This document shows positions 4,361-26,031 of a stretch of DNA of 64,000 nt, piece after piece. The position numbers and the translations under genes are program-made. Positions within the stretch are counted from its first letter, which is position 1, and each line of letters starts with the position of its first letter. Location of the stretch: NCBI GenBank assembly GCA_026709065.1, contig JAPOTS010000115.1, positions 5,929 to 69,928 on the forward strand. The letters run 5' to 3'. The stretch is from Bacteroidota bacterium. GTDB taxonomy: Bacteria > Bacteroidota > Rhodothermia > Rhodothermales > Bin80. The notes under the pieces are model-generated. The model had not been told where the DNA came from, made no database searches, and saw only the letters and a program-made list of their open reading frames with translations.

Positions 4361-5986
4361 ATGAAATTGGCATTGGCACAGATCAATACCACAGTAGGAG
4401 ACTTAAACGGGAATGCAGAAAAAGTATTGCAATACTGTAAGAAAGCATTCACCAAAAAGGCATCATTGGTGATATTTCCTGAACTCACGCTCACGGGTTA
4501 TCCCCCATTGGATCTATTGGAGTCACAAGATTTTATTTTACGAGAACAAGAGGTGCGAGAAAATTTAGCGAAGACCATACCCAAAGAACTCGGATTACTG
4601 ATAGGAGGTCCAAAGCAAAATCAAGATCACGGGAAGCCTCTATATAATGCGGCCTATCTCTATGAAGATGGTCGTTGTATGGGCGTGCGCTGTAAGCAAC
4701 TCCTGCCAACCTATGATGTTTTTGACGAGCGTAGGTATTTTGAACCAGAAATTGCTCCACAAACCTTGAAATGGCGGGGCATCAACTTGGCAATTCATAT
4801 ATGTGAAGATCTTTGGAATGTGCATGATCAGCGCAGAAAGCCCTATGCAAATGATCCAATTTCTATACTCAGTGAGCAGTCTCCAGATTTATTTATCAAT
4901 TTATGTGCCTCTCCTTTTGCGATTAATAAGCAGCAAGATCGTTATGCATTAATCAAACTGGTCGTACAGCGATATGGAAAGCCCTACGTCTTCACGAACT
5001 TGGTTGGAGCGAACACAGACCAGATTTTTGATGGCCGAAGCTGTGTAATGCAAGATGGCCATGTATTAGAAGCTCCTGCATTTAAGCAGGCCTTGTTAAC
5101 TTGGGATTTGGATCAACCACCAACATTAGATCCAATTGCCATGAAACCGATGGAACAAGTCATGGGCGCGTTAACTTTGGGAATACGGGATTATATAGTG
5201 AAATCTAATCTCCCCAAGAAGACCTACATTGGGTTAAGCGGGGGAATTGATTCGGCCGTGACCGCCACACTTGCTGTCCAAGCGCTGGGTTCTAATGCTG
5301 TCACAGGTGTCGCGATGCCATCAATGTATTCTTCAAAAGGTGCATGGGAGGATGCCCAAGATCTCGCCAACAATCTAAATATTAAACTTATTCAGCTTCC
5401 CATTGAGCAGCTCGTACAATCGTTTGAACTTGGCTTACAAGGTGTTTTTCACAATTGTGCTACAGATGTGACAGAAGAAAATATACAGGCACGCATCCGA
5501 GGAACGCTATTGATGGCACTTGCAAATAAATTTGGTGGAATCGTTCTTGCTACGGGCAATAAAAGTGAACTTGCTGTAGGGTATGCGACTCTGTATGGTG
5601 ATATGAATGGTGGATTATCGGTATTAGGGGATTTGTACAAAACTGAGGTCTATGAATTAGCCCGCCACATCAATGCCTCTAAGCCAGTCATTCCCCAATC
5701 CTCCATCAACAAGCCTCCCTCAGCTGAGCTGAGACCGGATCAGAAGGATACAGATAGCCTCCCGCCCTATGATGTTCTGGATTCAATCCTCGTAGAATAT
5801 ATTGAGAGGCAAAAAAGCATGACTGAGATCATCAAACAATTAAACTATTCAGAGGATCTGGTCCGATCTACTGTGGCCAAGGTACATCATTCGGAATACA
5901 AGCGGCATCAATCATCGCCTGTTCTTCGGTTAAGAGAAAAAGCCTTTGGGAGTGGGCGTAGACAACCCGTGGTGAAACGCAACTAG
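4361..5986 (+). CDS. nadE: Glutamine-dependent NAD+ synthetase
   Basis: 541 aa. N-terminal CN-hydrolase (nitrilase-like) domain plus a C-terminal NAD synthetase domain with the SGGIDS PP-loop. Confidence 0.95.
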   Translation: MKLALAQINTTVGDLNGNAEKVLQYCKKAFTKKASLVIFPELTLTGYPPLDLLESQDFILREQEVRENLAKTIPKELGLLIGGPKQNQDHGKPLYNAAYLYEDGRCMGVRCKQLLPTYDVFDERRYFEPEIAPQTLKWRGINLAIHICEDLWNVHDQRRKPYANDPISILSEQSPDLFINLCASPFAINKQQDRYALIKLVVQRYGKPYVFTNLVGANTDQIFDGRSCVMQDGHVLEAPAFKQALLTWDLDQPPTLDPIAMKPMEQVMGALTLGIRDYIVKSNLPKKTYIGLSGGIDSAVTATLAVQALGSNAVTGVAMPSMYSSKGAWEDAQDLANNLNIKLIQLPIEQLVQSFELGLQGVFHNCATDVTEENIQARIRGTLLMALANKFGGIVLATGNKSELAVGYATLYGDMNGGLSVLGDLYKTEVYELARHINASKPVIPQSSINKPPSAELRPDQKDTDSLPPYDVLDSILVEYIERQKSMTEIIKQLNYSEDLVRSTVAKVHHSEYKRHQSSPVLRLREKAFGSGRRQPVVKRN

Positions 5987-6414
5987 TCATGAGACTTAAG
6001 CCAGCGAACCGCAAGACTATACCCTGCCATCCCTAAACCCGAGATTTGACCGACACACACAGGCGCTAAATAAGAGAAGTGGCGAAAGGGCTCTCGAGAA
6101 TAGATATTACTGAGATGCACCTCAATGACAGGAGTTGCAATGGCTTTCACAGCATCTCTCAGCGCAACAGAGGTGTGCGTGTATGCACCAGGGTTGAAGA
6201 CAATCCCACTGAGACCTGATCGATGGCCCTCATGGAGCCGATCCACTAAGTCCCCTTCGTGATTACTCTGATAGAATGATAGTTCAACATCGGAGAATTC
6301 AGCACGCAACTTTTGCTCTAATGTATCAAGAGAAATATCTCCATATTGATCAGGCTCTCGCTGTCCCAATAAATTGAGGTTCGGGCCATTGAGAATTAGG
6401 ATGTGATGCTTCAT
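5983..6414 (-). CDS. aroQ: Type II 3-dehydroquinate dehydratase
   Basis: 143 aa. ILILNGPNLNLLGQREPDQYG N-terminus and a HLSNIYSREPFR block, both typical of type II dehydroquinase. Confidence 0.95.
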   Translation of the reverse strand: MKHHILILNGPNLNLLGQREPDQYGDISLDTLEQKLRAEFSDVELSFYQSNHEGDLVDRLHEGHRSGLSGIVFNPGAYTHTSVALRDAVKAIATPVIEVHLSNIYSREPFRHFSYLAPVCVGQISGLGMAGYSLAVRWLKSHD

Positions 6415-6415
6415 G

Positions 6416-7192
6416 TTAACTGGATTCTAAGAGCATGCCGTCATAACCTAAGAGCATGGACTCAGGGAGTTGTGCATTTTCGCGATCATGGAGAACTTGA
6501 TGCGCCATGTGTGTAAATACGGTTTGTTTAGCTTTGATTCTGTAGGCGACTTCAATGGCTTCGTTAATTGAAAAATGTCGGGGATGTTTCAATGGGCGTA
6601 ACGCGTCAAGGACAAGAAGATCTAGCCCCTCAAGTTTTGTATACTCTGGTTCTGGAATATGGCTTACATCGGTCACATATGCAAAGTTACCCATACGATA
6701 CCCATTGAGTTGCAAGCTTCCATGAAACACTTCAATGGGAATAACCTCTATCTGTTCAGAGCTACCGTAACGGCTCGTTATCATAAAAGGACGATCTGCA
6801 ATGAATAAATTTAGAGTCCCAGGATACATTCTGGAACTTCCCCAGATGTAAGGAAAGATTCGTTTTAATGATTCAATTGAGTCTCGATGGGCAAAACACG
6901 CCATCGGAGCGAAACATTCAAAGAAGTAGGGGCGTAGGTCATCCAGGCCCATAATATGGTCGTAATGGTGATGGGTCCACAGTACTGAATCAATCTTTCG
7001 GATATTCGCACGCAACATTTGTTGCCGAAAATCAGGTCCAGTATCAATGATAATACTGAGTTCTCCCACTTGGATATGACAGGCCGTGCGCAGGCGCTGA
7101 TCTTTTGGATCAATAGAGTGACATGTTTCACAATCACATCCGATCATAGGAATCCCTACAGATGTGCCTGTGCCCAATAGCGTGATGCGCAT
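6416..7192 (-). CDS. MBL-fold metallo-hydrolase (PhnP-like)
   Basis: 258 aa with the HHHYDH (HxHxDH) metal-binding motif. Tightly packed behind aroQ. Confidence 0.85.
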   Translation of the reverse strand: MRITLLGTGTSVGIPMIGCDCETCHSIDPKDQRLRTACHIQVGELSIIIDTGPDFRQQMLRANIRKIDSVLWTHHHYDHIMGLDDLRPYFFECFAPMACFAHRDSIESLKRIFPYIWGSSRMYPGTLNLFIADRPFMITSRYGSSEQIEVIPIEVFHGSLQLNGYRMGNFAYVTDVSHIPEPEYTKLEGLDLLVLDALRPLKHPRHFSINEAIEVAYRIKAKQTVFTHMAHQVLHDRENAQLPESMLLGYDGMLLESS

Positions 7193-7196
7193 CAGC

Positions 7197-7490
7197 TTAC
7201 TCAGAAGAATACCTCTGGATAATTGATTCTATGCGTTGGCGCATTTCCTTTTGCAAGGAGATTTCTTGCAAAGGAACATCTTTGAGTGTACGAGCCAAAA
7301 TTCCAAGATGGACTTCAGTCGGGTGATGTCGATTGAGGACAATGAGTTTATTTCCTTCAAGGGTACAGGATCCACCTTGAAACAATCCTTTATCCCAGCG
7401 AACGGAGTAGCCTGATTTCTTGGCAATCTTTTCCATAGCACGCAGAATAGCTGTATCTTTTGACATAGAAGTATAATTTAAGTGGCCCAA
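7197..7490 (-). CDS. Hypothetical small protein
   Basis: 97-aa ORF packed 4 nt upstream of the MBL hydrolase gene on the same strand. No motif recognised. Confidence 0.5.
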   Translation of the reverse strand: MGHLNYTSMSKDTAILRAMEKIAKKSGYSVRWDKGLFQGGSCTLEGNKLIVLNRHHPTEVHLGILARTLKDVPLQEISLQKEMRQRIESIIQRYSSE

Positions 7491-7865
7491 CTTGAATAAT
7501 TAGATCAACGACAAACCATTTGATCCGTTCATTCGCACTAAAAGTAGAGGCCATAGATCATAGCAATATAAAAATATGTTATATTGAGTTAAAATCAATA
7601 AACCTTTATTTAATCTGAATTAGGATGACCACATCTTTGAGTCTGAGGATTCGAGATTTTTTATTTACAGGCATAAAGATGATATTGGAACGCCGAAGTA
7701 TGCGTATCGTGGAGTTCATAGTGAGGTCAAAGATGATTGGGATGGAGGGGATCATTTGACAGAGATTAAATTTTTGATTCAAGAGTATCTCAATACGGCA
7801 TTTGGTAATGGAGTGATCATTGGGTATCGGATGACGAGTCAACCGATGCCAAGAGATTTATCGTA

Positions 7866-8129
7866 ATGGCGATTGGAAAATTTCTGTTTAGAGATGAGGC
7901 AATTAACCTGCCAAGATATTTTGCAGTGGTAAGTCCGCGATATACAAAATCACCTGGTGGCAAGTATCATAGAGGTGTGCGAGAGTGGAAATTATGGGGG
8001 TCTGATCAGGTGAGGATTAAAGAAAATACTGTGAAGCAAGTCAGAAAACATATTGACGAGGAGATCGCAAAGTTACCTGAGGATCTCCAAATTTTCTTTT
8101 TTGATAAGGACGAAATAGTCACATTATAA
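7866..8129 (+). CDS. Hypothetical small protein
   Basis: 87-aa ORF whose ATG overlaps (TAATG) the stop of an 80-codon open frame at 7624-7866 that lacks an ATG. No motif recognised. Confidence 0.3.
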   Translation: MAIGKFLFRDEAINLPRYFAVVSPRYTKSPGGKYHRGVREWKLWGSDQVRIKENTVKQVRKHIDEEIAKLPEDLQIFFFDKDEIVTL

Positions 8130-17231: not shown

Positions 17232-17440
17232 CCTGCAAGGGAAGATCATTTGAACTATGAAAATAGTTGCTAACTCAACAGCATTATGAGACCAATCGGC
17301 ACATAAATCTATAATCAGAATTACCCTCTGGATAGTCTTTAGATCTCTCATGTTATCTACTGACAAGTTACTGGTATCTATGGTACTTCTCCTGACATGA
17401 TCGTCGGGTGAGAGAAATATTCCTTCAACTCTGGATTATA

Positions 17441-18151
17441 TCAATGGGTAGGCATTTGATCCCATGTTCTGCCATCAAGTGTCCGTCCTGTGTGCTTCTT
17501 GAAGACACCACCCCATTGTTTGAAGAAAAATGGTACATGCGTTTTTATACACAAATCCCGGAGATCTCTGACCCACTCTGCTTCCATTGGTCGTGCCCCT
17601 GGACCAGATTCTCCTCCAACAATGACCCAGTCAATTCCACTGACGGGGAGACTAGGAAGAGGTCCTAAGAGCGGTTCAAGTGAGAGAAATTTGCAATATG
17701 CGTGAGTCTTTTTTAATTCGTCCAGTCGAAATTGCCATTTCTGTGATTCAATACTCGTTCCGAGCCAAATATTTGGGCTCCAAGTTAAGTCTTTCTCAAT
17801 TTCAAGGACGCGCCCAGGTCTTTTGGTAAGAACTTGGAATGTATGTTGTGATGCGAGGTTCATTGTCTTAAAGGTTGATTTAATAAACGACACATCAACA
17901 TCTTCGTGAAAGAGGTCTGACATAGAGTTTACGAACACTAGTTTGGGTTTTTGCCATTTAAGTGGCTCTTCAAGTATAGAAGGATGCATCGTTACGGAAA
18001 AACCATTTTGATATTTTTTCACGCCCATCGCTTGAAGTCTTTTGGCCATTCGTTCGGCGTAGCAAAATTTACATCCATGGCTAATTTTCGTGCACCCCGT
18101 TACGGGATTCCAAGTTGTTTCTGTCCACTCAATTCCAGAATGTGTTGACAT
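17441..18151 (-). CDS. DUF5131 (phage Gp37/Gp68 family) protein
   Basis: 236 aa. N-terminus [30 protein letters not shown] carries the three-Cys motif characteristic of this family. Confidence 0.85.
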
Positions 18152-18154
18152 GAT

Positions 18155-18603
18155 TCACAGAGATAAAAGGTGTTTGGCGATATTCTTGGCCAGATGGATT
18201 GCTTTGGGTTGATCACTGCCGACGCAGAACATAAGTTCGTAAAGACTGGAATTTCTTGAGTTTTTCAGTGTTACTGAATTTTCAAGAAATCGGTTACCAA
18301 ATAATTCACGAAGTCTATTCTTATAGATGGTGATTAAATTTTCTGCACCCGATTCTCGCTCATGTCGGGGTTTGTTGAATAATTCCTGTTGGAGACTCAA
18401 TTGATACATTGATGATTAAAGGCGAAATGATAAGGAGAATTCTTCCCTAAACATTCTATGTGTACCCGGTTGTAGATAACCAGTTTGGGGTCAAATTCTG
18501 GTGATATTGCCTTAACTTTGAGGCTAAACAAGATCATTTTAGTATTGTTCTGAGTAATATCATCAATCAAAAGGAGAATATTCTGATATCCACTACCAAG
18601 ATA
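18155..18603 (-). pseudogene. Decayed three-Cys-motif partner protein (TcmP-like) remnant
   Basis: The 84-aa ORF ends in SSLYELMFCVGSDQPKAIHLAKNI, like the TcmP C-terminus. The upstream part (YLGSGYQNILLLIDDIT...) lies in a different frame with no N-terminal region. It occupies the usual partner position next to DUF5131. Confidence 0.4.
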
Positions 18604-18727
18604 TTACTATGTCTCAAATAAAAGGGAAAGTTGAATAACAGTTCATCATAACGCACGAATAAAATTGAAACGGTTATATCCGACATTTGATAAATGATAT
18701 GACATTAGGCACTCCTGACTTCTCTGA

Positions 18728-18998
18728 AATAGCAAAAATACCGAAAACATTAAACAACGGGAAATAATTGAGAGTATCTTGAGTTCACCCGGAAAATTCC
18801 GCTCGGCGGAGTTGGTGAGCAAGGTGACCCTGGAAGGGTTTGATAAACGCAGACGTGAATACAAACATCTAGGCTGGGTATACGTAGCCCAGAATTCTTG
18901 TTTTGCAGACAAAGTCTTCAAGATTGGACAAACCCAGAGATCCCCATAAGAACGGATGGATACCCTCAGCGCGTCAACCTCCTTAAACAAAAAATTTG
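18728..18998 (+). pseudogene. T5orf172 (GIY-YIG-like) domain gene, 5' fragment, interrupted by insertion and an in-frame TAA
   Basis: Own translation gives ...RREYKHLGWVYVAQNSCFADKVFKIGQTQRSP*ERMDTLSASTSLNKKF. The stop at 18947-18949 sits where homologs have Glu. There is no ATG start. Confidence 0.7.
18990..18998. repeat. Left copy of the 9-bp direct repeat AAAAATTTG (candidate target-site duplication)
   Basis: An identical 9-mer is present at 24123-24131, just outside the other end of the cassette. Confidence 0.7.
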
Positions 18999-19020
18999 GG
19001 AATTATCCAACTAACTGTAA
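18999..19020. repeat. Left terminal inverted repeat GGAATTATCCAACTAACTGTAA
   Basis: Matches the reverse complement of 24100-24121 (GGAACTATACGCCAACCTGTAA) at 16 of 22 positions. Confidence 0.6.
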
Positions 19021-19032
19021 CCAACTCCTATC

Positions 19033-19425
19033 TTGATGAGTCATATAAGTGAACACAAAAGCATGGACGCGCAACATATAATGACGGGACCTGACAAGGC
19101 TTTCCGACGTGGAATTAGTTTCTTTGAGTTGATCAAGCTCATCCCTGATGAAGAAACAGCGATCAAGTGGTTTGAGTCCATCTTCTGGCTAGATGGTCGC
19201 AGATGCCCCAAATGTCAGGGGTGCAACACGTACGAGACCAATAATAGCAATGGCATGCGGTATTGGTGCAGAGACTGCAAGCGATACTTCTCGGTGATGA
19301 CTGGCACCGGTCAAATCCTAAGTATTCCACAAATTATTCAAGATTGTGTTATATTTACATCAATAAACAAACCACTGCCAATTGATGCAAACCAACGCCC
19401 TTTACTACGGGGATTGCCATGCTAA
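19033..19425 (+). pseudogene. IS1595-family transposase, N-terminal zinc-ribbon part only (no DDE domain)
   Basis: IPDEETAIKWFESIFWLDGRRCPKCQGCNTYE...YWCRDCKRYFSVMTGT matches the IS1595-type Zn-ribbon N-terminus. Similarity ends near 19320. Confidence 0.7.
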
Positions 19426-21441
19426 CTAAGTCCCCCTTGAATTACCTACGGCACCTGGAGACTGTGCTACAGGAGTCACCTAAGTACATGGTTGATGGTA
19501 AATTGGTGAAACATCTTATAGTGGAAGACGCTCTGAAATGCGACCAGGTACTGCTGGATTTACTCCTCCGAGATGAAGAAACAAAGTCGAAGTTTTTCGA
19601 AAAAATGGGGGGGGGGTATTTTCGTTTTCGACAAGGTGGCATTTCAAAAATATGTTACCCATGAGCAGTTCCTCCCTGGAAGCTACACGGTTTTCGAGAA
19701 TAAGATTGGGATATCCCAAGATCAGGCGTTTTTGACGCGAACGGGGGAGATCGTGCTTGACTTCCCCTACAAGGATAGCGTATTTCATGGGATACAGTCA
19801 CACGAGGATGCAGGGCACGATGAGATATTGGTAAATACTACCATCCATCAAAGGGATGTTGACAGACTGTTTCACCCCAAAGTTTTTACGAATTGGAGGA
19901 TGTACGAGGGTGGGACGGAGGACGAGATAGCCGCATTGCCTCGCGACATGGATGGCATGGTAGCCTCCAATCTAATTGTGAAGGGGAATAATCTGGTGGC
20001 ACTCCATTCACTGGTGAAGGTGTATAGACAGAAAGTTAAGATGATCTATATTGATCCACCCTACAATACTGGGGGGCCTGCAAATGCCTTTGGCTACAAC
20101 AACAACTACTCTCGCTCCACATGGTATACATTTATGCACAACCGATTGAAAGTCGCAAGAGATTTCCTGCGGGATGATGGTTTCATTGCAATAGCTATTG
20201 ATCACTATGAACTTGGATACTTGATTGTATTAGCCGATGAGATTTTTGGGCGAGAAAATAGAATAGGCATTATCACTGTTGTCAACAACCCCGCACTGAG
20301 AAATCAGGTAAAGTTCTTCTCCCCCACCAATGACTTCATGATCGTTTATGCACGCGATAAGGATGTATGCTCCATGAACAACGTGATCCTTCATGGAGAA
20401 TCCTTAGCGGAGTTCAACGAGGAGGACGAGGAGGGGAAGTTCAAATGGGTAGAGTTTATGCGCACAGGCGGTGGGCCACTTGGTCTTAGGGAAAATAAGT
20501 CAGAAAACTTCTGGTACCCGCTGTATGTAAGCGGTGATCTCCAAACCGTGTCTACCGAGCCACTTTTAGATCCCAGCTCAACTCCTGTATACCCCATAAG
20601 TCCGACAGGAAAGGAACGTACATGGGATGTAACAAAGGACTCAGCTCAGGAACTCGTCCAAGAATTATCCGCTAAGTTTCACGAGAAGCGGGGTTGTGTT
20701 GTCATCTACAAGAAGTATCGCGTCAGCAAAGGGGAAAAGGTGCCCACGGTTTGGTGGAAGAAGAAATATAACTCCAAGGAACACGGAACCAAATTGTTAT
20801 CGAAAATACTTGGTCGCAAGAATAGTGGATTTAACTATCCCAAATCCGTCTTCACCTTAGAGGACATCATCCGCACGCTCACGGAGCCTACGGATATCGT
20901 CTTGGATTTTTTTGCGGGGAGCGGAACAACAGGGCACGCAGTCCTCAACCTCAACTGGAAGTATGGAGAAAGCCGACGCTTCATTATGATTGAGCAGATG
21001 GACTACATTGAAGATGTCACACTCGCTAGGATTAACTCGGTGATCGCGGACGATATGTTTACCACTTGGCCGTCGGAGGTGCAAGGTGCAACTGAAGTGG
21101 CGAAGCCGACAGAATCAGGATCAAACGATAGGCTAATCTACATGGAGCTCGCCAGCCTGAAGCAAATTGATCTCGAGCGGATCAGGAATGCAACCAAAAA
21201 AGAACTGCTTGATCTATGGATCGGATTCCAGAGTGACCCGTTCATCTCCTATAGGGTTGAATTTGATAAGACCTCGGATGAGGAGTTCGCGAGGCTGCCT
21301 GTGCATTCACAGAAGAAAATCTTGCAGAAGATCATAGATCTCAACATGCTATATATTCCCTACTCGGAGATAAATGATGACTCATTCAAGGTTAGTGACA
21401 TAGACCGCCATCTAAACAAAGATTTTTACGGCAATGGGTAG
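19419..21441 (+). CDS. mod: Type III R-M DNA methyltransferase Mod; reading frame broken at a G10 tract (two ORFs, 19419-19664 and 19573-21441)
   Basis: Motif IV IYIDPPYNTGG and motif I FFAGSGTTGHAV. The Mod-like N-terminus continues across the G tract (...SKFFEKMGGG / IFVFDKVAFQKYVTHEQFLPGSYTVFENKIG). Loss of one G would give a continuous 673-aa protein. Confidence 0.85.
19607..19616 (+). repeat. Homopolymeric G10 tract inside mod
   Basis: Read directly from the sequence as aaaaATGGGGGGGGGGtatt. Confidence 0.9.
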
Positions 21442-24061
21442 ATCTTCGCTCTTGAATACTGCATCCGTACTCTACGAAGAAGGTCGCATGGCGAGTGAGG
21501 TGCGCGAATGGATTACACCCAATTTAAACCCCGCTTTTAATCTGCGACCTTACCAGACGGAAGCACTGATCAAGTACGATTGGGTCTATAATGAGAAACG
21601 TGAATTCAGACACCTGCTGTTTCAGATGGCTACGGGCAGCGGGAAGACGCTGATTATGGCGGGTATCCTGTTGGACCTCTATAAGAAGGGGTTCAGGGAT
21701 TTCATTTTTTTTGCTCACAGAACTGTGATTATAGAGAAGACGCGAGCCAACTTCCTGAACCCAGATTCATCAAAATACTTATTCGCAGATACTGTTTCCA
21801 TTGATGGTACCACCGTAGAGATTGTAGAAGTGCCAAAGTTCGGTGCGGGGCGGGAGGAGGACATGAACATTGTATTTACGACATTACACCAATTAGATAT
21901 CGATCTTAATAAGAAACCGTCAGAGAATGGATGCACATATGGGGATTTTAGGCGAAGGAGGGTCGTGCTAATCTCAGATGAAGCACATCACACTAATGCC
22001 AGCACAAGGGAGGGGGCACAGAAAACATGGGAGGAAACAGCCATACGTATATTTAAATCTCACCCCGATAATTACCTGTTTGAATTTACCGCCACTGCAG
22101 ACTTAGAGAATGAAAAGATATACAAGAAGTACGAGAACAAACACTTAGTTGACTACCCACTCAGAGAATTTAGGGCAAGCGGGTATTCCAAGGAGGTAAT
22201 GCTTATAGATTCGGATGTGGATAACGACTTTGAGCGCGCTCTGCTGGCGGTCTTGCTTAGTCAGTACAGGCTAAAGGTATTCGTCCATAATAGGATATTG
22301 ATCAAGCCTGTCATCCTCTTCAAGTCCAGCTCGATCAATAGTAGCGAGAAGTTTTTCGGAGATTTCGTGAGGGGGATAAGTGCTTTGACACCTGAGAGGT
22401 TGGAGCGGGTGCGGAAGCGGACGGAAAAGCAGGTGATCCGCGATATGTTTCAATACTTCGTTCAACATGGTATCACTTTCGAGAATTTGGTCTTAGAGAT
22501 ACAAGAAGACTTTTCAAGCGAGAAATGCGTTATGATCAACAGTAAACCTGATCAGGAAAATCAGCAGAAACAACTCATTGTTAACAGCATAGAGGATGCA
22601 GATAATCCTTACAGGGCCCTGTTCTCTGTCGACAAACTGAACGAAGGGTGGGATGTGCTCAATCTGTTTGATATAGTGAGGCAGCCCCCCAAGAACAAGA
22701 AGGGCACGAAATACAAAGAAACAATATCCGAAGCACAACTGATTGGGCGAGGCGCAAGATACTGCCCATTTAGGATATCCGAAGAGCAACCACTCTACCA
22801 AAGAAAATACGACGATTGCGAAACCTCAAAAAGCGGGCACCTCAAGATTTGCGAGCATCTGTACTATCACTGTGAGGGAACACGTAGCTACATAACTCAA
22901 CTCACAGATTCACTCAAGGAATCAGGAGTCAATGTAATGGGTGGGAGCGTGTCTAAAAAACTTGTCCTAAAGGATTCATTCAGAAAAACAGATATCTATA
23001 CTAATGGGGTTATTTACCTCAACGAGCAGGTGCCAGCACACAACATCCCAGAGGTAGACATTAGGGAGATGGTCTTGAAACATGAGTCCCATATACGATT
23101 TGCCACAGGTTACATGTCTATTGGTTCACTTGATGACCGCGTCCAGCAAGGTGGTCACGAAGAGCAAAGTCTCCCCGAGTCGCGCGTGTTCATGGTGCAT
23201 GAATTCCGCGAAGCCCTTATTCGCAAGGCACTCAATCGGGTACGTTTCTACAGGTTTGACAATCTCGTCAAGTACATACCATACCTACGGTCAGTCAACG
23301 ACTTTCTCCCCCACCTCAGCGATCTTAAAATTGGCTTCAGCGGGAACGCAGAGCAGGTATCCCGTCCCACACCTGAGATGAGATTGCAAGCACTCGTTTC
23401 TGCATTAGAGGATCTATCGTCCACGATTAAGCAGGAACACCGTGTTTACAGGGGGACAAAGAAATTCAAGGGGTATAGAATCAAAAAGATTTTCGGCAAG
23501 AATTCTGACGGGAAAACATTGCACTTTACCTTGTATGCCAATTCTGAGAGTGAAAGAGAATTCGGGAAACCACAATCCGAATCCCCAAGATCTGACTTGC
23601 AGATTGACTTATCACGTGAGGATTGGTATGCGTTCAATGAAAATTATGGCACATCTGAAGAGAAACACTTTGTCAGATATGTTAAGAACATAAAGGGCCA
23701 GTTACCAGTCGACTATGAGTTATACCTGCTCCGCAATGCAGGACATTTCAAGCTGTACACTTTTGACGGAGGATCCGCCTTTGAGCCCGATTTCGCAATG
23801 TTCATCATAAATAAACAGACGCACGAAACGCTGTGCTACCAGATTTTTGTTGAGCCGAAGGGGGAGCACCTCCTGTCCAATGACGATAGTCAATCAAAGG
23901 AGGTTTTTTTGAAGCAGATAACCGAAGAGTACGGTGCAGACACTCTACTGGATAACAGGCACTATCGGCTGATCGGGATGCCTCTGTACAACAAGGAGAA
24001 AAGAGGCAGGTCATTTGACAGGCAGTTAAAATCAATCCTGAATTTGCCTGAGGTTCCCTGA
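21434..24061 (+). CDS. res: Type III restriction enzyme Res subunit (helicase-nuclease)
   Basis: 875 aa. Helicase motif I QMATGSGKT, motif II LISDEAHH, and a C-terminal PD-(D/E)xK-like block FEPDFAMF...IFVEPKGEHL. Overlaps the mod stop by 8 nt. Confidence 0.9.
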   Translation: MGRSSLLNTASVLYEEGRMASEVREWITPNLNPAFNLRPYQTEALIKYDWVYNEKREFRHLLFQMATGSGKTLIMAGILLDLYKKGFRDFIFFAHRTVIIEKTRANFLNPDSSKYLFADTVSIDGTTVEIVEVPKFGAGREEDMNIVFTTLHQLDIDLNKKPSENGCTYGDFRRRRVVLISDEAHHTNASTREGAQKTWEETAIRIFKSHPDNYLFEFTATADLENEKIYKKYENKHLVDYPLREFRASGYSKEVMLIDSDVDNDFERALLAVLLSQYRLKVFVHNRILIKPVILFKSSSINSSEKFFGDFVRGISALTPERLERVRKRTEKQVIRDMFQYFVQHGITFENLVLEIQEDFSSEKCVMINSKPDQENQQKQLIVNSIEDADNPYRALFSVDKLNEGWDVLNLFDIVRQPPKNKKGTKYKETISEAQLIGRGARYCPFRISEEQPLYQRKYDDCETSKSGHLKICEHLYYHCEGTRSYITQLTDSLKESGVNVMGGSVSKKLVLKDSFRKTDIYTNGVIYLNEQVPAHNIPEVDIREMVLKHESHIRFATGYMSIGSLDDRVQQGGHEEQSLPESRVFMVHEFREALIRKALNRVRFYRFDNLVKYIPYLRSVNDFLPHLSDLKIGFSGNAEQVSRPTPEMRLQALVSALEDLSSTIKQEHRVYRGTKKFKGYRIKKIFGKNSDGKTLHFTLYANSESEREFGKPQSESPRSDLQIDLSREDWYAFNENYGTSEEKHFVRYVKNIKGQLPVDYELYLLRNAGHFKLYTFDGGSAFEPDFAMFIINKQTHETLCYQIFVEPKGEHLLSNDDSQSKEVFLKQITEEYGADTLLDNRHYRLIGMPLYNKEKRGRSFDRQLKSILNLPEVP

Positions 24062-24099
24062 GATTGTACCGTGACTACACGTATATACCCTGTAGCGAA

Positions 24100-24121
24100 T
24101 TACAGGTTGGCGTATAGTTCC
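24100..24121. repeat. Right terminal inverted repeat
   Basis: TTACAGGTTGGCGTATAGTTCC is the inverted partner of 18999-19020. Confidence 0.6.
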
Positions 24122-24122
24122 T

Positions 24123-24131
24123 AAAAATTTG
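24123..24131. repeat. Right copy of the 9-bp direct repeat AAAAATTTG
   Basis: Identical to 18990-18998. Confidence 0.7.
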
Positions 24132-24457
24132 ATCTCGTCTACTTTGTGCATGTATCAGAGCATCTGGCCGCCGAGAAATATGTCCATCAGACATTGAAAG
24201 ATTTCCGGTTAAATCCTGGAAAAGAATTCTTTAATGCCCCCCTTATGACCATCGTTAAGACTCTTGATGAAGCTGGTAACATATTTCAAATACCTCTTGG
24301 AAAAACTCAACACGCTGGCATGCTACCTCCAGCTCTGGAAAAACAGATCGTTCCCTGTCCTAGATGTAAAATGAAAAGCCGAGTTCCATTACTCGGAATT
24401 GATATATCAGTTACCTGCAGAGCATGTAATGCTCCTTACAAAGTCATAAACGATTGA
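24123..24457 (+). pseudogene. T5orf172-domain gene, 3' fragment with C-terminal zinc ribbon
   Basis: KFDLVYFVHVSEHLAAEKYVHQTLKDFRLNPGKEFFNA continues the 5' fragment in frame. The C-terminus has CPRC...CRAC. Confidence 0.7.
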
Positions 24458-24763
24458 TTTCGTCAAAAGCGGGTCGTCTCCATCTATTCAATATTTCCAA
24501 TTTCCACGATTTATCTTTCTTCTACCTCATTGCTCAACTTGGTCAATGTGAACTGCTTCTGATAGATAGTTGTGATTGTACAATCTATGCAATGCGTCTT
24601 GTTTTCGTAGCATAACGAAGGCTATCCATGGATTCTATACAAAGAATGTAAGATAATACAAGGGCAGCTGAAGCGAGTATGATCCAAATGACTATCCTGC
24701 GTGAATAAATTAGTTCTGATTATTAGGACACCGGGTGTATTTCAGTAGTATTGGAAAGGCGTA

Positions 24764-26031
24764 TCAATCAGGAATGAGTTCAGAGGGACACCAAGAAAAA
24801 TAGAAGACTGGGAAATCTGAACTGGATTCTGCTCCGAACAAACCGCTATCGCGTCGAAATGGAATATACAACGATATATGACCGTAGATTTCAGACTCAA
24901 CACTCGCATACGCTCGCCCCCCTTGTATCGTTTTTAAGAGTAAATTTGAGGGCAATTCCATTTCTCCAACCAATTTGTTATCTGAATCTATAATCATCCA
25001 CTGAGCGAATTCTGCGTCTGTGTCAGGGTACTGTCTGATCCAGATATGTCCATGATCATCAACCACCATTGCATCATATGCTGGTTTTGTTTCTGGAATT
25101 AATTCAGATTGAAGTATCACCTTGTGGTTTTCCTCCATGTAATTTGAGGCAACGATAGACTCTAATTCTTTCCGAGTAACAGACTGAACTTCATGTTCGG
25201 CTTTGATGTTTTGTATTTGTTCTCCCATATCTGAAATAATAGAGATATTAATCGTGTCATTCCATCCAGCATACAACACGCCGTTCTTAAAGACGAAAAA
25301 GGGCGACCTGCCAAAGGGTCGTAGCATTACAGTAATGGAAGACCCCTGAGTCTTAACTAAGCGCTCTGTGGCAGGAAGTTCTGCCATGGGGTGTAGCGCC
25401 TTAACATCTTGCCAGTCTACAAAATTTATTACACTAGTTCTAGGATCATCGGGTTCTATGCCCCATTCATTCCCAGGAGTGCGGTATGGTGTGTCAAATT
25501 TGTACAGATATCCCTTTTTCGTAACGCTAAGTAATTTAGAGGGACTGGAAAAATTTGATTCAGTGTTAATTGTATTCCTGCTGTAAGCGTATTGTAGCGT
25601 TTTTGGGTCAAATACTACGAGTCTATTTAACCCCCGGTCAAAAACATAGATTGAATCTTCAAGTCCAATGACTACGCTAGTGCTATTTCTGAACTCCCCA
25701 GGACCTTCGCCCTCGGCCCCTAAATGCCTGCGAAATCTCCTCTGTCCGAGAATGACATGATTGGAGATTCACCCCATCCACCTCCAACAAATAACTGGCT
25801 GTTACTATTCACGGCAATCTGTGAATTTAAATGAGATCTGAACAGGATAGTATCGCCAGCAGACTCGTCTCCAATTCTAAAAATCTCCGTAAACTGGTAA
25901 GGAGACTGGTTCACCTGAGCCTCTGTCTCTTGATGTAGGACAAAAGAAAAAGCACAAAGTATGGGGAAAAACGAGATAACTCTTACAGAAGACTTCATCA
26001 AAAACAGGATAGTGAGGTAGTAAAGGGTCAA
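24764..26031 (-). pseudogene. Secreted 6-bladed beta-propeller (NHL-like) protein with a single frameshift
   Basis: An N-terminal ORF with signal peptide ends in ...GDFAGI*. The next frame continues directly with GAEGEGPGEFRNSTSVVIGLEDSIYVFDRG... and runs into the 207-aa ORF. The frames differ by 1 nt at a T run near 25720-25726. Confidence 0.6.

What the first reader, a model, noticed from the sequence alone, without database searches (positions are those of the whole stretch)
18990..24131. Complete Type III R-M system carried inside an IS1595-like TIR/TSD-bounded cassette that split a T5orf172 gene
The left end GGAATTATCCAACTAACTGTAA and the reverse complement of the right end GGAACTATACGCCAACCTGTAA agree at 16 of 22 positions, including the outer GGAA and inner CTGTAA. 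AAAAATTTG lies immediately outside both ends, with one extra T on the right. Deleting the 5.1-kb element and one repeat copy rejoins the flanks in frame into a single T5orf172-like ORF. The rejoined sequence reads ...GWVYVAQNSCFADKVFKIGQTQRSP*ERMDTLSASTSLNKKF|DLVYFVHVSEHLAAEKYVHQTLKDFRLNPGKEFFNA.... The first gene inside is only the zinc-ribbon N-terminus of an IS1595-type transposase. The position of its DDE domain is occupied by mod-res. This suggests an R-M system became IS cargo, or replaced the IS core. The result would be a non-autonomous defence cassette that could be mobilised in trans. I do not know this to be a described vehicle for Type III systems.
Basis: partly seen in the sequence, partly recalled or inferred. 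Interest (0 to 1): 0.75.

Follow-up and report, generated by a model that had tools for sequence, protein, structure and literature searches.

The report
Restriction-modification genes riding a transposase-less transposon
A 5.1-kb piece of DNA carrying a Type III restriction-modification system sits between the end-repeats of a decayed IS1595-type insertion sequence and has jumped as one unit into at least two different genes in related marine-type bacteria; this kind of vehicle for such systems was described in 2010, so it is a clean new example rather than a new principle.

Summary
The element spans window 18998-24122 (5125 bp). It has imperfect 23-bp terminal inverted repeats (GGGAATTATCC.../AGGAACTATAC...) and a perfect AT-rich target duplication. 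That duplication is best read as 8 bp (AAAAATTT), not 9 bp plus a stray T. Removing the element restores one collinear T5orf172 gene.

The decisive new evidence is a second copy. The same cassette, 98.9% identical with the same ends, lies at an unrelated site in a 3.1-Mb Rhodothermales genome. There it splits an IS4-like transposase pseudogene and has its own 8-bp duplication (ACATTTTA). A 214-bp MITE with the same ends exists in another Rhodothermaceae MAG.

The first ORF matches only residues 4-78 of a 316-position IS1595 transposase profile. No DDE domain exists anywhere in the 64 kb, so the element is non-autonomous. No full-length IS1595 with these ends was found, so mobilisation in trans is inferred.

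It is G10, G11 and G13 in three assemblies, all out of frame, which suggests phase variation.

Transposon-like, repeat-bounded restriction-modification units with 8-bp duplications were described by Furuta et al. 2010. This is a new member of a known kind.

The parts
18779..18997 (+). 5' half of the interrupted T5orf172 (GIY-YIG-like) gene. An in-frame TAA at 18947-18949 replaces a conserved Ser codon.
   Evidence: Pfam T5orf172 on the rejoined product. Gap-free alignment to intact homologues.
18990..18997 (.). Left copy of the target-site duplication AAAAATTT (8-bp model). The 9-bp reading is 18990-18998.
   Evidence: Uninterrupted copies in L001 and L006 hold a single ACAAAAAATTTGATC. The rejoined sequence aligns as one HSP.
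18998..19020 (+). Left terminal inverted repeat GGGAATTATCCAACTAACTGTAA.
   Evidence: Identical in the second copy, L010.
19033..19425 (+). Truncated transposase ORF. Residues 18-92 (to about nt 19308) are the zinc-ribbon N-terminus of IS1595-family transposases. The last ~37 residues are unrelated read-through.
   Evidence: Pfam PF12760. 1284 relatives, with homology nearly always ending near residue 93. Profile alignment to positions 4-78 of 316. 6 non-synonymous and 0 synonymous changes against L010.
19312..19418 (+). Junction between the IS remnant and the cargo, and upstream region of mod.
   Evidence: Homology to transposases stops by nt 19311. The mod ATG is at 19419.
19419..21441 (+). 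Type III mod (N6-adenine methyltransferase subunit), read as two overlapping ORFs (19419-19664 and 19573-21441) because of a frameshift in the G tract.
   Evidence: Removing one G gives a 673-aa protein with a continuous TypeIII_RM_meth domain at 62.6 bits. Related to EcoP15I Mod, 4zcf_A, E = 1.8e-33.
19607..19616 (+). Poly-G tract (G10) inside mod. In-frame lengths would be G9 or G12.
   Evidence: G10 in the window, G11 in L002, G13 in L010. It is the only G/C homopolymer of 8 or more in the 64 kb. It is absent from related mod genes.
21434..24061 (+). Type III res (helicase-nuclease subunit, 875 aa). Its start overlaps the mod stop by 8 nt.
   Evidence: Pfam ResIII. Precomputed HI_1054_N and HI_1054 families. 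A 99% identical copy in L010.
24100..24122 (-). Right terminal inverted repeat. Its reverse complement is AGGAACTATACGCCAACCTGTAA (GGGAAC... in L010).
   Evidence: Homology with the L010 copy ends exactly at 24121.
24123..24130 (.). Right copy of the target-site duplication AAAAATTT.
24131..24457 (+). 3' half of the interrupted T5orf172 gene, including a C-terminal CxxC...CxxC zinc ribbon.

Best explanation
The 5125-bp segment at 18998-24122 is a non-autonomous transposable cassette derived from an IS1595-family insertion sequence. It resembles a 'mobile insertion cassette'.

It keeps both IS ends (23-bp imperfect inverted repeats starting GGGAA) and the first ~92 codons of the transposase gene (the zinc ribbon only). 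Everything from there to about 40 bp before the right end is a Type III mod-res operon instead of the HTH and DDE catalytic parts.

The whole unit has transposed by a DDE-type reaction that duplicates 8 bp of AT-rich target. This has happened at least twice: once into a T5orf172 gene (this window), and once into an IS4-like transposase pseudogene in another Rhodothermales genome.

Because the element encodes no catalytic domain, the transposase must have come in trans from a full-length IS1595-family relative that recognises the same ends. This step is inferred.

The cargo looks functional but switchable. mod and res show more synonymous than expected-neutral change. mod also carries a hypermutable poly-G tract whose length sets the reading frame. 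Res needs Mod, so a mod-OFF state silences the whole system.
For: Shown by tool results:
- A precise insertion with a perfect target duplication, and a collinear rejoined T5orf172 gene.
- A second copy 98.9% identical over 5131 nt, with identical left and near-identical right ends, at an unrelated locus of OZ241385.1. It is flanked by ACATTTTA on both sides and splits ...GDYIL|ADRGY... of a DDE_Tnp_1-like pseudogene in frame.
- A 214-bp MITE with 22/23-matching ends of the same family in Rhodothermaceae bin80.
- The N-terminal fragment is homologous to bona fide IS1595 transposases.
- No DDE domain in six frames of the 64 kb.
- The transposase remnant evolves without constraint (0 synonymous, 6 non-synonymous codon changes), whereas mod shows 12 synonymous to 7 non-synonymous and res 11 to 12.
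- The nearest other mod-res relatives (48-49% Res identity) have an HTH_3 gene upstream, and no zinc-ribbon gene or these repeats. The zinc-ribbon ORF is therefore not a usual partner of this R-M clade.

From the literature:
- IS1595 members usually make 8-bp duplications and carry an N-terminal zinc finger plus a C-terminal DDE_Tnp_IS1595 domain (PMC8101967).
- An IS1595-family composite transposon duplicates 8-bp AT-rich targets (PMC7835479).
- Elements without a transposase can be moved by a cognate transposase from a related intact IS (PMC3129680).
Against: - No full-length IS1595 element with these ends was found. The degenerate end pattern scanned over 185,579 species genomes returned only the cassette, a MITE, one solo-looking end and a chance hit. 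OZ241385.1 holds only the cassette's own two ends.
- The word-indexed protein search found no close relative of the N-terminal fragment other than itself.
- The closest full-length relatives fetched with DNA (L015, 57% over the N-terminus, and two plasmid copies) show no comparable repeats. Assignment of the ends to IS1595 therefore rests on position, duplication length and the adjacent gene remnant.
- No empty site in the same genomic context exists in the databases. The 'empty site' evidence comes from paralogous or orthologous T5orf172 copies elsewhere.
- The MITE's flanks are not a clean duplication (4/8 match).
- All three mod alleles seen are out of frame, so current R-M activity is unproven.
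Confidence: 0.8

Rival explanations
1. The zinc-ribbon ORF is a working gene of the cassette rather than a dead remnant. It could be an InsA-like end-binding repressor or recruiter, or a regulator of mod-res.
For: The ORF is open in both copies. It sits 12 nt inside the left repeat and directly upstream of mod. The zinc-ribbon cysteines are conserved. From general knowledge, IS1, a relative of IS1595, uses its N-terminal product InsA as a repressor that binds the ends.
Against: All 6 codon differences between the two copies are non-synonymous, against roughly 1:1 to 1:2 in res and mod. The HTH that follows the zinc ribbon in full-length relatives is missing. The gene caller did not call the ORF in L010. 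The tail after residue 93 is unrelated read-through. The nearest mod-res relatives have no such gene.
Confidence: 0.1
2. The unit moves without an IS1595 transposase. The R-M proteins themselves or host recombination insert it, and the repeats are incidental.
For: Furuta et al. 2010 left open whether R-M gene products could act as the transposase in repeat-bounded R-M units (PMC2853133). No cognate transposase was found here.
Against: Two independent insertions end at exactly the same bases and each has a perfect 8-bp duplication, which is the signature of staggered DDE-type strand transfer. A cargo-less MITE carries the same ends. A transposase gene remnant lies just inside the left end in the usual orientation. 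Res carries a helicase domain plus a PD...ExK-type nuclease motif, which is not a transposase fold (and reading of the sequence).
Confidence: 0.04
3. The element is an immobile fossil. It transposed when it was still a transposase-bearing 'transporter IS' with mod-res as passenger, and the DDE part was deleted afterwards, independently of any trans-mobilisation.
For: IS1595 members carrying passenger genes are documented (Siguier et al. 2009, cited in PMC3129680). No helper transposase was found.
Against: The two copies at different sites share the same internal truncation point and the same remnant-to-cargo junction, and are 98.9% identical throughout. The deletion therefore predates at least one of the two insertions. 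Otherwise the identical deletion would have had to occur twice.
Confidence: 0.06

Closest known systems
Transposon-like R-M units flanked by inverted repeats with 8-bp target duplication (Furuta, Abe and Kobayashi 2010, PMC2853133): a Xanthomonas oryzae Type II unit, and a Neisseria gonorrhoeae Type IIG unit with a likely inactivated transposase gene (COG3677)
   Same: R-M genes lie between imperfect terminal inverted repeats. There is an 8-bp direct duplication against an empty site. There is no working transposase inside, and the N. gonorrhoeae unit also carries a transposase remnant. [quoted passage not shown]
   Different: Here the cargo is a Type III mod-res pair with a poly-G switch. The remnant can be assigned to the IS1595 family by profile. 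Two independent insertion sites of the same unit and a MITE sibling are documented, which makes transposition of the unit much firmer. The host is an uncultured Rhodothermales lineage.
Mobile insertion cassettes (MICs), e.g. IS231-MIC231 of Bacillus cereus (De Palmenaer et al. 2004, cited in PMC3129680)
   Same: IS-type ends, passenger genes, no transposase, and mobilisation expected from a cognate IS in trans.
   Different: MIC231 derives from an IS4-family element and its trans-mobilisation was shown experimentally (from memory). Here the family is IS1595, a transposase stub is retained, and the helper has not been identified.
IS1595-family 'transporter IS' with passenger genes (ISPna2+ and ISNwi1+ groups; Siguier, Gagnevin and Chandler 2009, cited in PMC3129680 and PMC8101967)
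   Same: IS1595-type ends, 8-bp duplication, and extra non-transposition genes between the ends.
   Different: Those elements keep a full transposase. This one has lost the HTH and DDE parts. From memory, the ISNwi1 group's end consensus (ggnnatTAT) fits GGGAATTAT. That could not be checked because ISfinder was not available.
Phase-variable Type III mod genes (phasevarions), e.g. Helicobacter pylori modH with a G[n] tract (Atack et al. 2018, PMC5909438)
   Same: A mononucleotide G tract of 9 or more inside the mod ORF, whose length sets the frame. Tract length differs between assemblies.
   Different: The tract sits on a transposable cassette in an environmental lineage. No in-frame (ON) allele has been seen yet. 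No methylome or expression data exist.

Membership tests
IS1595 family insertion sequence | N-terminal Zn_ribbon_IS1595 (Zn_Tnp_IS1595) domain in the transposase | tested here: met
   PF12760 at 27.4 bits against a cutoff of 25.4. 116.6 bits against a profile of 21 full-length relatives. 54% identity to P0062, which passes NCBIfam transpos_IS1595.
IS1595 family insertion sequence | C-terminal DDE_Tnp_IS1595 catalytic domain | tested here: not met
   Homology stops at residue 92-93. A six-frame profile scan of all 64 kb finds nothing else. The element is therefore a derivative, not an autonomous member.
IS1595 family insertion sequence | 8-bp target-site duplication (PMC8101967) | tested here: met
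   AAAAATTT in the window and ACATTTTA in L010, both perfect. A reading of 9 bp plus one base is formally possible. It is less consistent with the GGGAA start of all related ends.
IS1595 family insertion sequence | Terminal inverted repeats shared with a named, full-length IS1595-family element | tested here: inconclusive
   The scan of genome contigs with the degenerate end pattern found the cassette, a MITE, a solo-looking end and a chance hit, but no full-length IS. More distant full-length relatives gave no clear repeats. ISfinder was not available.
Mobile insertion cassette / non-autonomous DNA transposon | IS-type inverted repeats at both ends, passenger genes inside, no transposase | tested here: met
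Mobile insertion cassette / non-autonomous DNA transposon | Same unit at more than one site, each with its own target duplication | tested here: met
   The window site (T5orf172) and the L010 site (IS4-like pseudogene). 98.9% identity over 5131 nt.
Mobile insertion cassette / non-autonomous DNA transposon | Mobilisation by a cognate transposase supplied in trans | not testable with these tools
   No helper was identified. This needs whole-genome scans of the hosts and a transposition assay.
Type III restriction-modification system | Mod subunit with a TypeIII_RM_meth N-terminal domain and a beta-class N6_N4 methyltransferase core (DPPY before FxGxG) | tested here: met
   PF12564 at 62.6 bits and PF01555 at 116.4 bits on the G9-corrected protein. 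IDPPYN precedes FFAGSGTTG in the translation. Related to EcoP15I Mod, 4zcf_A.
Type III restriction-modification system | Res subunit with a ResIII helicase domain and a C-terminal nuclease, encoded directly downstream of mod | tested here: met
   PF04851 at 97.6 bits. HI_1054_N and HI_1054 families. An EPDF...VEPKG motif is visible near the C-terminus. mod and res overlap by 8 nt. No PDB sequence hit for Res at E <= 0.001.
Type III restriction-modification system | Both genes intact and active | tested here: not met
   mod is out of frame at the G tract in the window (G10), L002 (G11) and L010 (G13). Activity was not testable.
Phase-variable mod (phasevarion) | Mononucleotide repeat of 9 or more within the ORF (criterion of PMC5909438), and length variation between isolates | tested here: met
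   G10, G11 and G13 in three assemblies. Caveat: two are short-read metagenome assemblies, in which homopolymer lengths are less reliable.
Phase-variable mod (phasevarion) | Observed ON and OFF alleles, and methylation-dependent gene regulation | not testable with these tools
   Only OFF lengths were seen. No read-level or methylome data were available.
T5orf172 / GIY-YIG-like nuclease family (the interrupted target gene) | Pfam T5orf172 domain continuous across the rejoined junction | tested here: met
   PF10544 at 48.5 bits, residues 32-119 matching profile positions 1-98 of 101. 77% identity over 100% of the length to the intact P0002.

The most novel reading that the evidence does not exclude
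The GGGAAYTAT...CTGTAA ends mark a family of IS1595-derived, transposase-less cassettes in Rhodothermales that shuttle different defence cargos. Here the cargo is a phase-variable Type III R-M system. In OZ244857.1 it may be an AAA_16/STAND-like ATPase gene placed right beside a CRISPR array. The cassettes would be moved by an unseen helper transposase and would land preferentially in other selfish genes. That would make small IS-derived cassettes a dedicated route for building defence islands.
Probability: 0.15. Interest if true: 0.6.

Novelty: new member of a known kind. Interest (0 to 1): 0.4.

Why it matters
How defence systems move between genomes is an active question. Most documented vehicles are phages, plasmids, integrative elements and large transposons. 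This case gives unusually clean sequence evidence that a complete Type III system can travel as the cargo of a minimal, transposase-less IS derivative. The evidence is two insertion sites with the same ends, two different perfect duplications, and a MITE sibling. It also places a poly-G contingency switch on the mobile unit itself, so the cassette may arrive silent and switch on later. That could ease establishment of a potentially self-toxic system in a new host. The principle was proposed in 2010, so the value is as a well-supported example and a starting point for finding the helper transposase, not as a new mechanism.

Tried and rejected
- Word-indexed homologue search with the zinc-ribbon ORF returned only itself. 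The exhaustive HMMER search was needed to see relatives.
- I looked for a full-length IS1595 with the same ends. The genome contigs pattern scan gave no autonomous copy. A viral contigs pattern scan gave one chance hit inside phage DNA with no partner end. A viral contigs protein scan gave nothing. The metagenome contigs protein scan gave one full-length IS1595-like gene (L015/L016, 57% over the N-terminus) without recognisable matching repeats.
- I tried to derive family-typical ends from annotated plasmid IS1595 copies (Entomospira, Pseudosulfitobacter). No clear terminal repeats were found in single copies.
- The L012 (Cytophagales) hit lies inside a 1077-aa surface-protein gene and was rejected as chance.
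- A tblastn extension of P0062 beyond residue 93, up to nt 19473, suggested a longer remnant. The profile search did not support it, and the tail is low-identity read-through containing stops.
- An empty site in the same genomic context was not found. No intact T5orf172 above 78% identity exists in the protein database, and all 10 contigs carrying the 3' fragment also carry the cassette or break inside it.
- The ISfinder end consensus for IS1595 subgroups could not be retrieved from the held literature.
- Res gave no PDB sequence match.
Full report
**1. Observation**

The left end GGAATTATCCAACTAACTGTAA is at 18999-19020. The right end TTACAGGTTGGCGTATAGTTCC is at 24100-24121. They match at 16 of 22 positions when one is reverse-complemented. 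AAAAATTTG lies at 18990-18998 and again at 24123-24131, with a T at 24122 in between.

An inverted repeat of this quality is not rare in itself. The repeat finder lists 872 inverted pairs in the 6.2-kb region, and this pair ranks second among equals. Its weight comes from its position exactly inside a direct duplication. At fixed positions, a 16/22 match has a probability of about 1e-5.

**2. The interrupted gene**

Joining 18779-18998 to 24132-24457 gives a 181-codon frame. Its product matches Pfam T5orf172 across the junction, residues 32-119 on profile positions 1-98 of 101.

A database search found 58 relatives. Several are intact proteins of 166-191 aa at 70-78% identity from Rhodothermaceae and related MAGs. 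The alignment shows no gap at the junction...STSLNKKF|DLVYFVHV... against ...STSVYKKFDLVYFVHV.... At the DNA level, uninterrupted copies in L001 and L006 carry ACAAAAAATTTGATCTC once. With the element and one repeat copy removed, the window aligns to them as a single 680-686-nt blastn HSP at 88% identity.

The in-frame TAA at 18947-18949 replaces a Ser (TCA) that is invariant in the homologues covering that column. The gene is a pseudogene in addition to being split.

**3. Exact borders**

Seven related ends were collected: both ends of the window copy, both ends of L010, both ends of the L011 MITE, and the L013 end. Six of them begin GGGAA, and the window's right end begins AGGAA.

The simplest model is therefore a 23-bp terminal repeat (18998-19020 and 24100-24122) with an 8-bp duplication AAAAATTT (18990-18997 and 24123-24130). 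The apparent ninth duplicated base, G, is the element's first base on the left and ordinary target sequence on the right.

An 8-bp duplication is what the IS1595 family usually makes (PMC8101967). An IS1595-family composite transposon was shown experimentally to duplicate 8-bp AT-rich targets (PMC7835479).

**4. Contents**

The element holds three coding regions.

- ORF 19033-19425 starts 12 nt inside the left repeat and matches Zn_ribbon_IS1595.
  - An exhaustive HMMER search found 1284 relatives, and the match nearly always ends at query residue 92-94.
  - Full-length relatives such as P0062 (335 aa, 54% identity over the shared part) carry DDE_Tnp_IS1595 and pass NCBIfam transpos_IS1595.
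  - A profile built from 21 full-length relatives aligns to residues 18-92 of the ORF, profile positions 4-78 of 316, and stops there.
  - The same profile scanned over all six frames of the 64-kb window hits nothing else. The element has no catalytic domain.
- mod follows at 19419-21441 (TypeIII_RM_meth plus N6_N4_Mtase), and is related to EcoP15I Mod.
- res follows at 21434-24061 (ResIII; HI_1054 families), overlapping mod by 8 nt.
- Only about 40 nt separate the res stop from the right repeat.

**5. Evidence that the unit moves**

The best Res hit, at 99% identity, comes from a 3,116,805-nt contig, later identified as OZ241385.1, a Rhodothermales MAG chromosome.

There the whole cassette is 98.9% identical over 5131 nt. 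Homology stops exactly at the right repeat and, at most, four bases outside the left one. The surroundings are unrelated: an aldolase gene on one side and a DDE_Tnp_1 fragment and a TolB-like gene on the other. The flanks read ...GATTACATTTTA|GGGAATT... and ...TTCCC|ACATTTTAGCCGAC..., a perfect 8-bp duplication of ACATTTTA. Rejoining them restores ...GDYILADRGY..., the DDE region of an already decayed IS4-like transposase gene.

Two sites, the same ends and two different perfect duplications together show transposition of the whole unit.

A second assembly of the window's own locus from another sample (L002) differs from the window at a single position.

**6. A family of ends**

The degenerate end pattern, scanned over one genome for each of 185,579 species, gave four loci.

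- L014 holds the L010 cassette.
- L011 (Rhodothermaceae bin80) holds a 214-bp MITE whose two ends match each other at 22 of 23 positions. Its left end resembles the cassette's right end over about 30 nt.
- L013 (OZ244857.1) holds one end that is 22/23 identical to the window's left repeat. It lies about 75 nt after the last repeat of a CRISPR array and upstream of an AAA_16-like ATPase ORF. The stored locus ends before any partner could be seen.
- L012 is a chance match inside a large surface-protein gene.

No full-length IS1595 with these ends was recovered. This is the main gap in the trans-mobilisation model.

**7. Is the cargo alive?**

Between the two cassette copies, the transposase remnant has 0 synonymous and 6 non-synonymous codon changes. 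mod has 12 synonymous and 7 non-synonymous, and res has 11 and 12. The counts are small. They fit a decaying remnant next to cargo under purifying selection.

mod, however, is split by a run of ten G at 19607-19616. The upstream frame (19419-) and the downstream frame (19573-) each carry part of the TypeIII_RM_meth domain. Removing one G gives a 673-aa protein with a continuous domain at 62.6 bits.

The tract is G10 here, G11 in L002 and G13 in L010. In-frame lengths would be G9 or G12, so all three observed lengths are out of frame. It is the only G/C homopolymer of eight or more in the 64 kb. It is missing from related mod genes, which read ...FFTEVDKIAVFDK... at that point.

By the criterion of Atack et al. 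2018 (a mononucleotide tract of nine or more), this is a candidate phase-variable mod (PMC5909438). Because Res activity depends on Mod (PMC2853133, introduction), an OFF mod silences restriction as well.

Two of the three lengths come from short-read assemblies, so read-level confirmation is needed.

**8. Rivals**

- A functional zinc-ribbon regulator is not excluded. It is disfavoured by the substitution pattern, by the missing HTH, and by the absence of such a gene next to the nearest mod-res relatives. Those relatives have an HTH_3 gene upstream instead, and an extra small gene between mod and res.
- Movement by the R-M proteins themselves does not explain the MITE or the IS-like duplications.
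- A 'fossil' that lost its DDE only after its last jump would require the same deletion twice, because both copies share one truncation point.

**9. Comparison with known systems**

Furuta, Abe and Kobayashi 2010 (PMC2853133) reported R-M genes flanked by imperfect inverted repeats for all R-M types. Two cases were resolved against empty sites, and both had 8-bp duplications. The Neisseria gonorrhoeae unit also carries a likely inactivated transposase gene. The authors explicitly raised insertion by a transposase acting in trans.

Mobile insertion cassettes, MITEs and IS1595 'transporter IS' with passenger genes are established categories (PMC3129680).

What is added here:
- assignment of the vehicle to IS1595 through the gene remnant and the duplication length;
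- a Type III cargo carrying a poly-G switch;
- two independent insertions of one unit;
- a MITE sibling.

My recollection that the ISNwi1 subgroup's end consensus (ggnnatTAT) fits GGGAATTAT could not be checked.

**10. Verdict**

This is a new member of a known kind, of moderate interest. The helper transposase and the right-hand side of the L013 element are the two things most worth finding.

Noticed in passing
It is G10, G11 and G13 in three assemblies, all out of frame (in frame would be G9 or G12). It is the only long G/C homopolymer in the 64 kb and is absent from related mod genes. It is a candidate contingency (phase-variation) switch carried on a mobile cassette.
   Followed up: yes
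window 18711-18997 + 24123-24520; L001 7761-8428; L006 5888-6562; L007, L008 and L009 likewise: The T5orf172 gene, with only about 65 nt on each side, is itself a discrete ~685-bp unit. It is found at 77-88% DNA identity in unrelated genomic contexts: next to an integrase in a defence island, beside IS605/IS66 genes, and between pgk and an exonuclease gene. This fits a free-standing homing-type nuclease gene. Several copies are decaying (TAA at window 18947; a different TAA in L001; a C-terminal frameshift in L006).
   Followed up: partly
L013 (OZ244857.1) 4375-7024 and 7098-8000: An end 22/23 identical to the cassette's left repeat lies about 75 nt after a CRISPR array (37-nt repeat ...CCCCGCTCATCAGGGGATTGAAAC, period 76). 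It is followed by an ORF for an AAA_16/STAND-like ATPase. The locus is cut at 8000, so it is unknown whether this is a second cassette with different cargo or a solo end.
   Followed up: partly
L011 (MPNB01000092.1) 6073-6286: A 214-bp MITE with 22/23-matching ends of the same family lies 33 nt upstream of an ftsH-like gene start. Its flanks (AATCTTTT and TAAAATTT) are not a clean duplication.
   Followed up: partly
L010 7273-7507 and 12644-13406: The second cassette copy is inserted in an IS4-like (DDE_Tnp_1) transposase gene that already carries stops and frameshifts. Both known targets of the cassette are thus themselves selfish or mobile genes.
   Followed up: partly
window 17300-25400: The stretch around the insertion has lower G+C (0.35-0.42) than the sequence to its left (0.48-0.51). 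It holds a DUF5131 (phage Gp37/Gp68-like) gene at 17441-18151, an 84-aa ORF, the T5orf172 pseudogene and a 207-aa ORF with no Pfam match. It lies between a Na/Ca exchanger gene and moeA. It may be a small accessory island.
   Followed up: no
L003, L004 and L005 (contig ends): Three other assemblies of this locus break inside the 3' part of mod, or 8 nt before the right repeat (L005). This may be plain fragmentation, or strain heterogeneity at the cassette.
   Followed up: no
L020 2050-7628; L021 2491-7637: The nearest other mod-res relatives (48-49% Res identity) have a different layout: a small HTH_3 (controller-like) gene, then mod, then an extra 145-263-aa gene, then res. The cassette version lacks both extra genes.
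   Followed up: no
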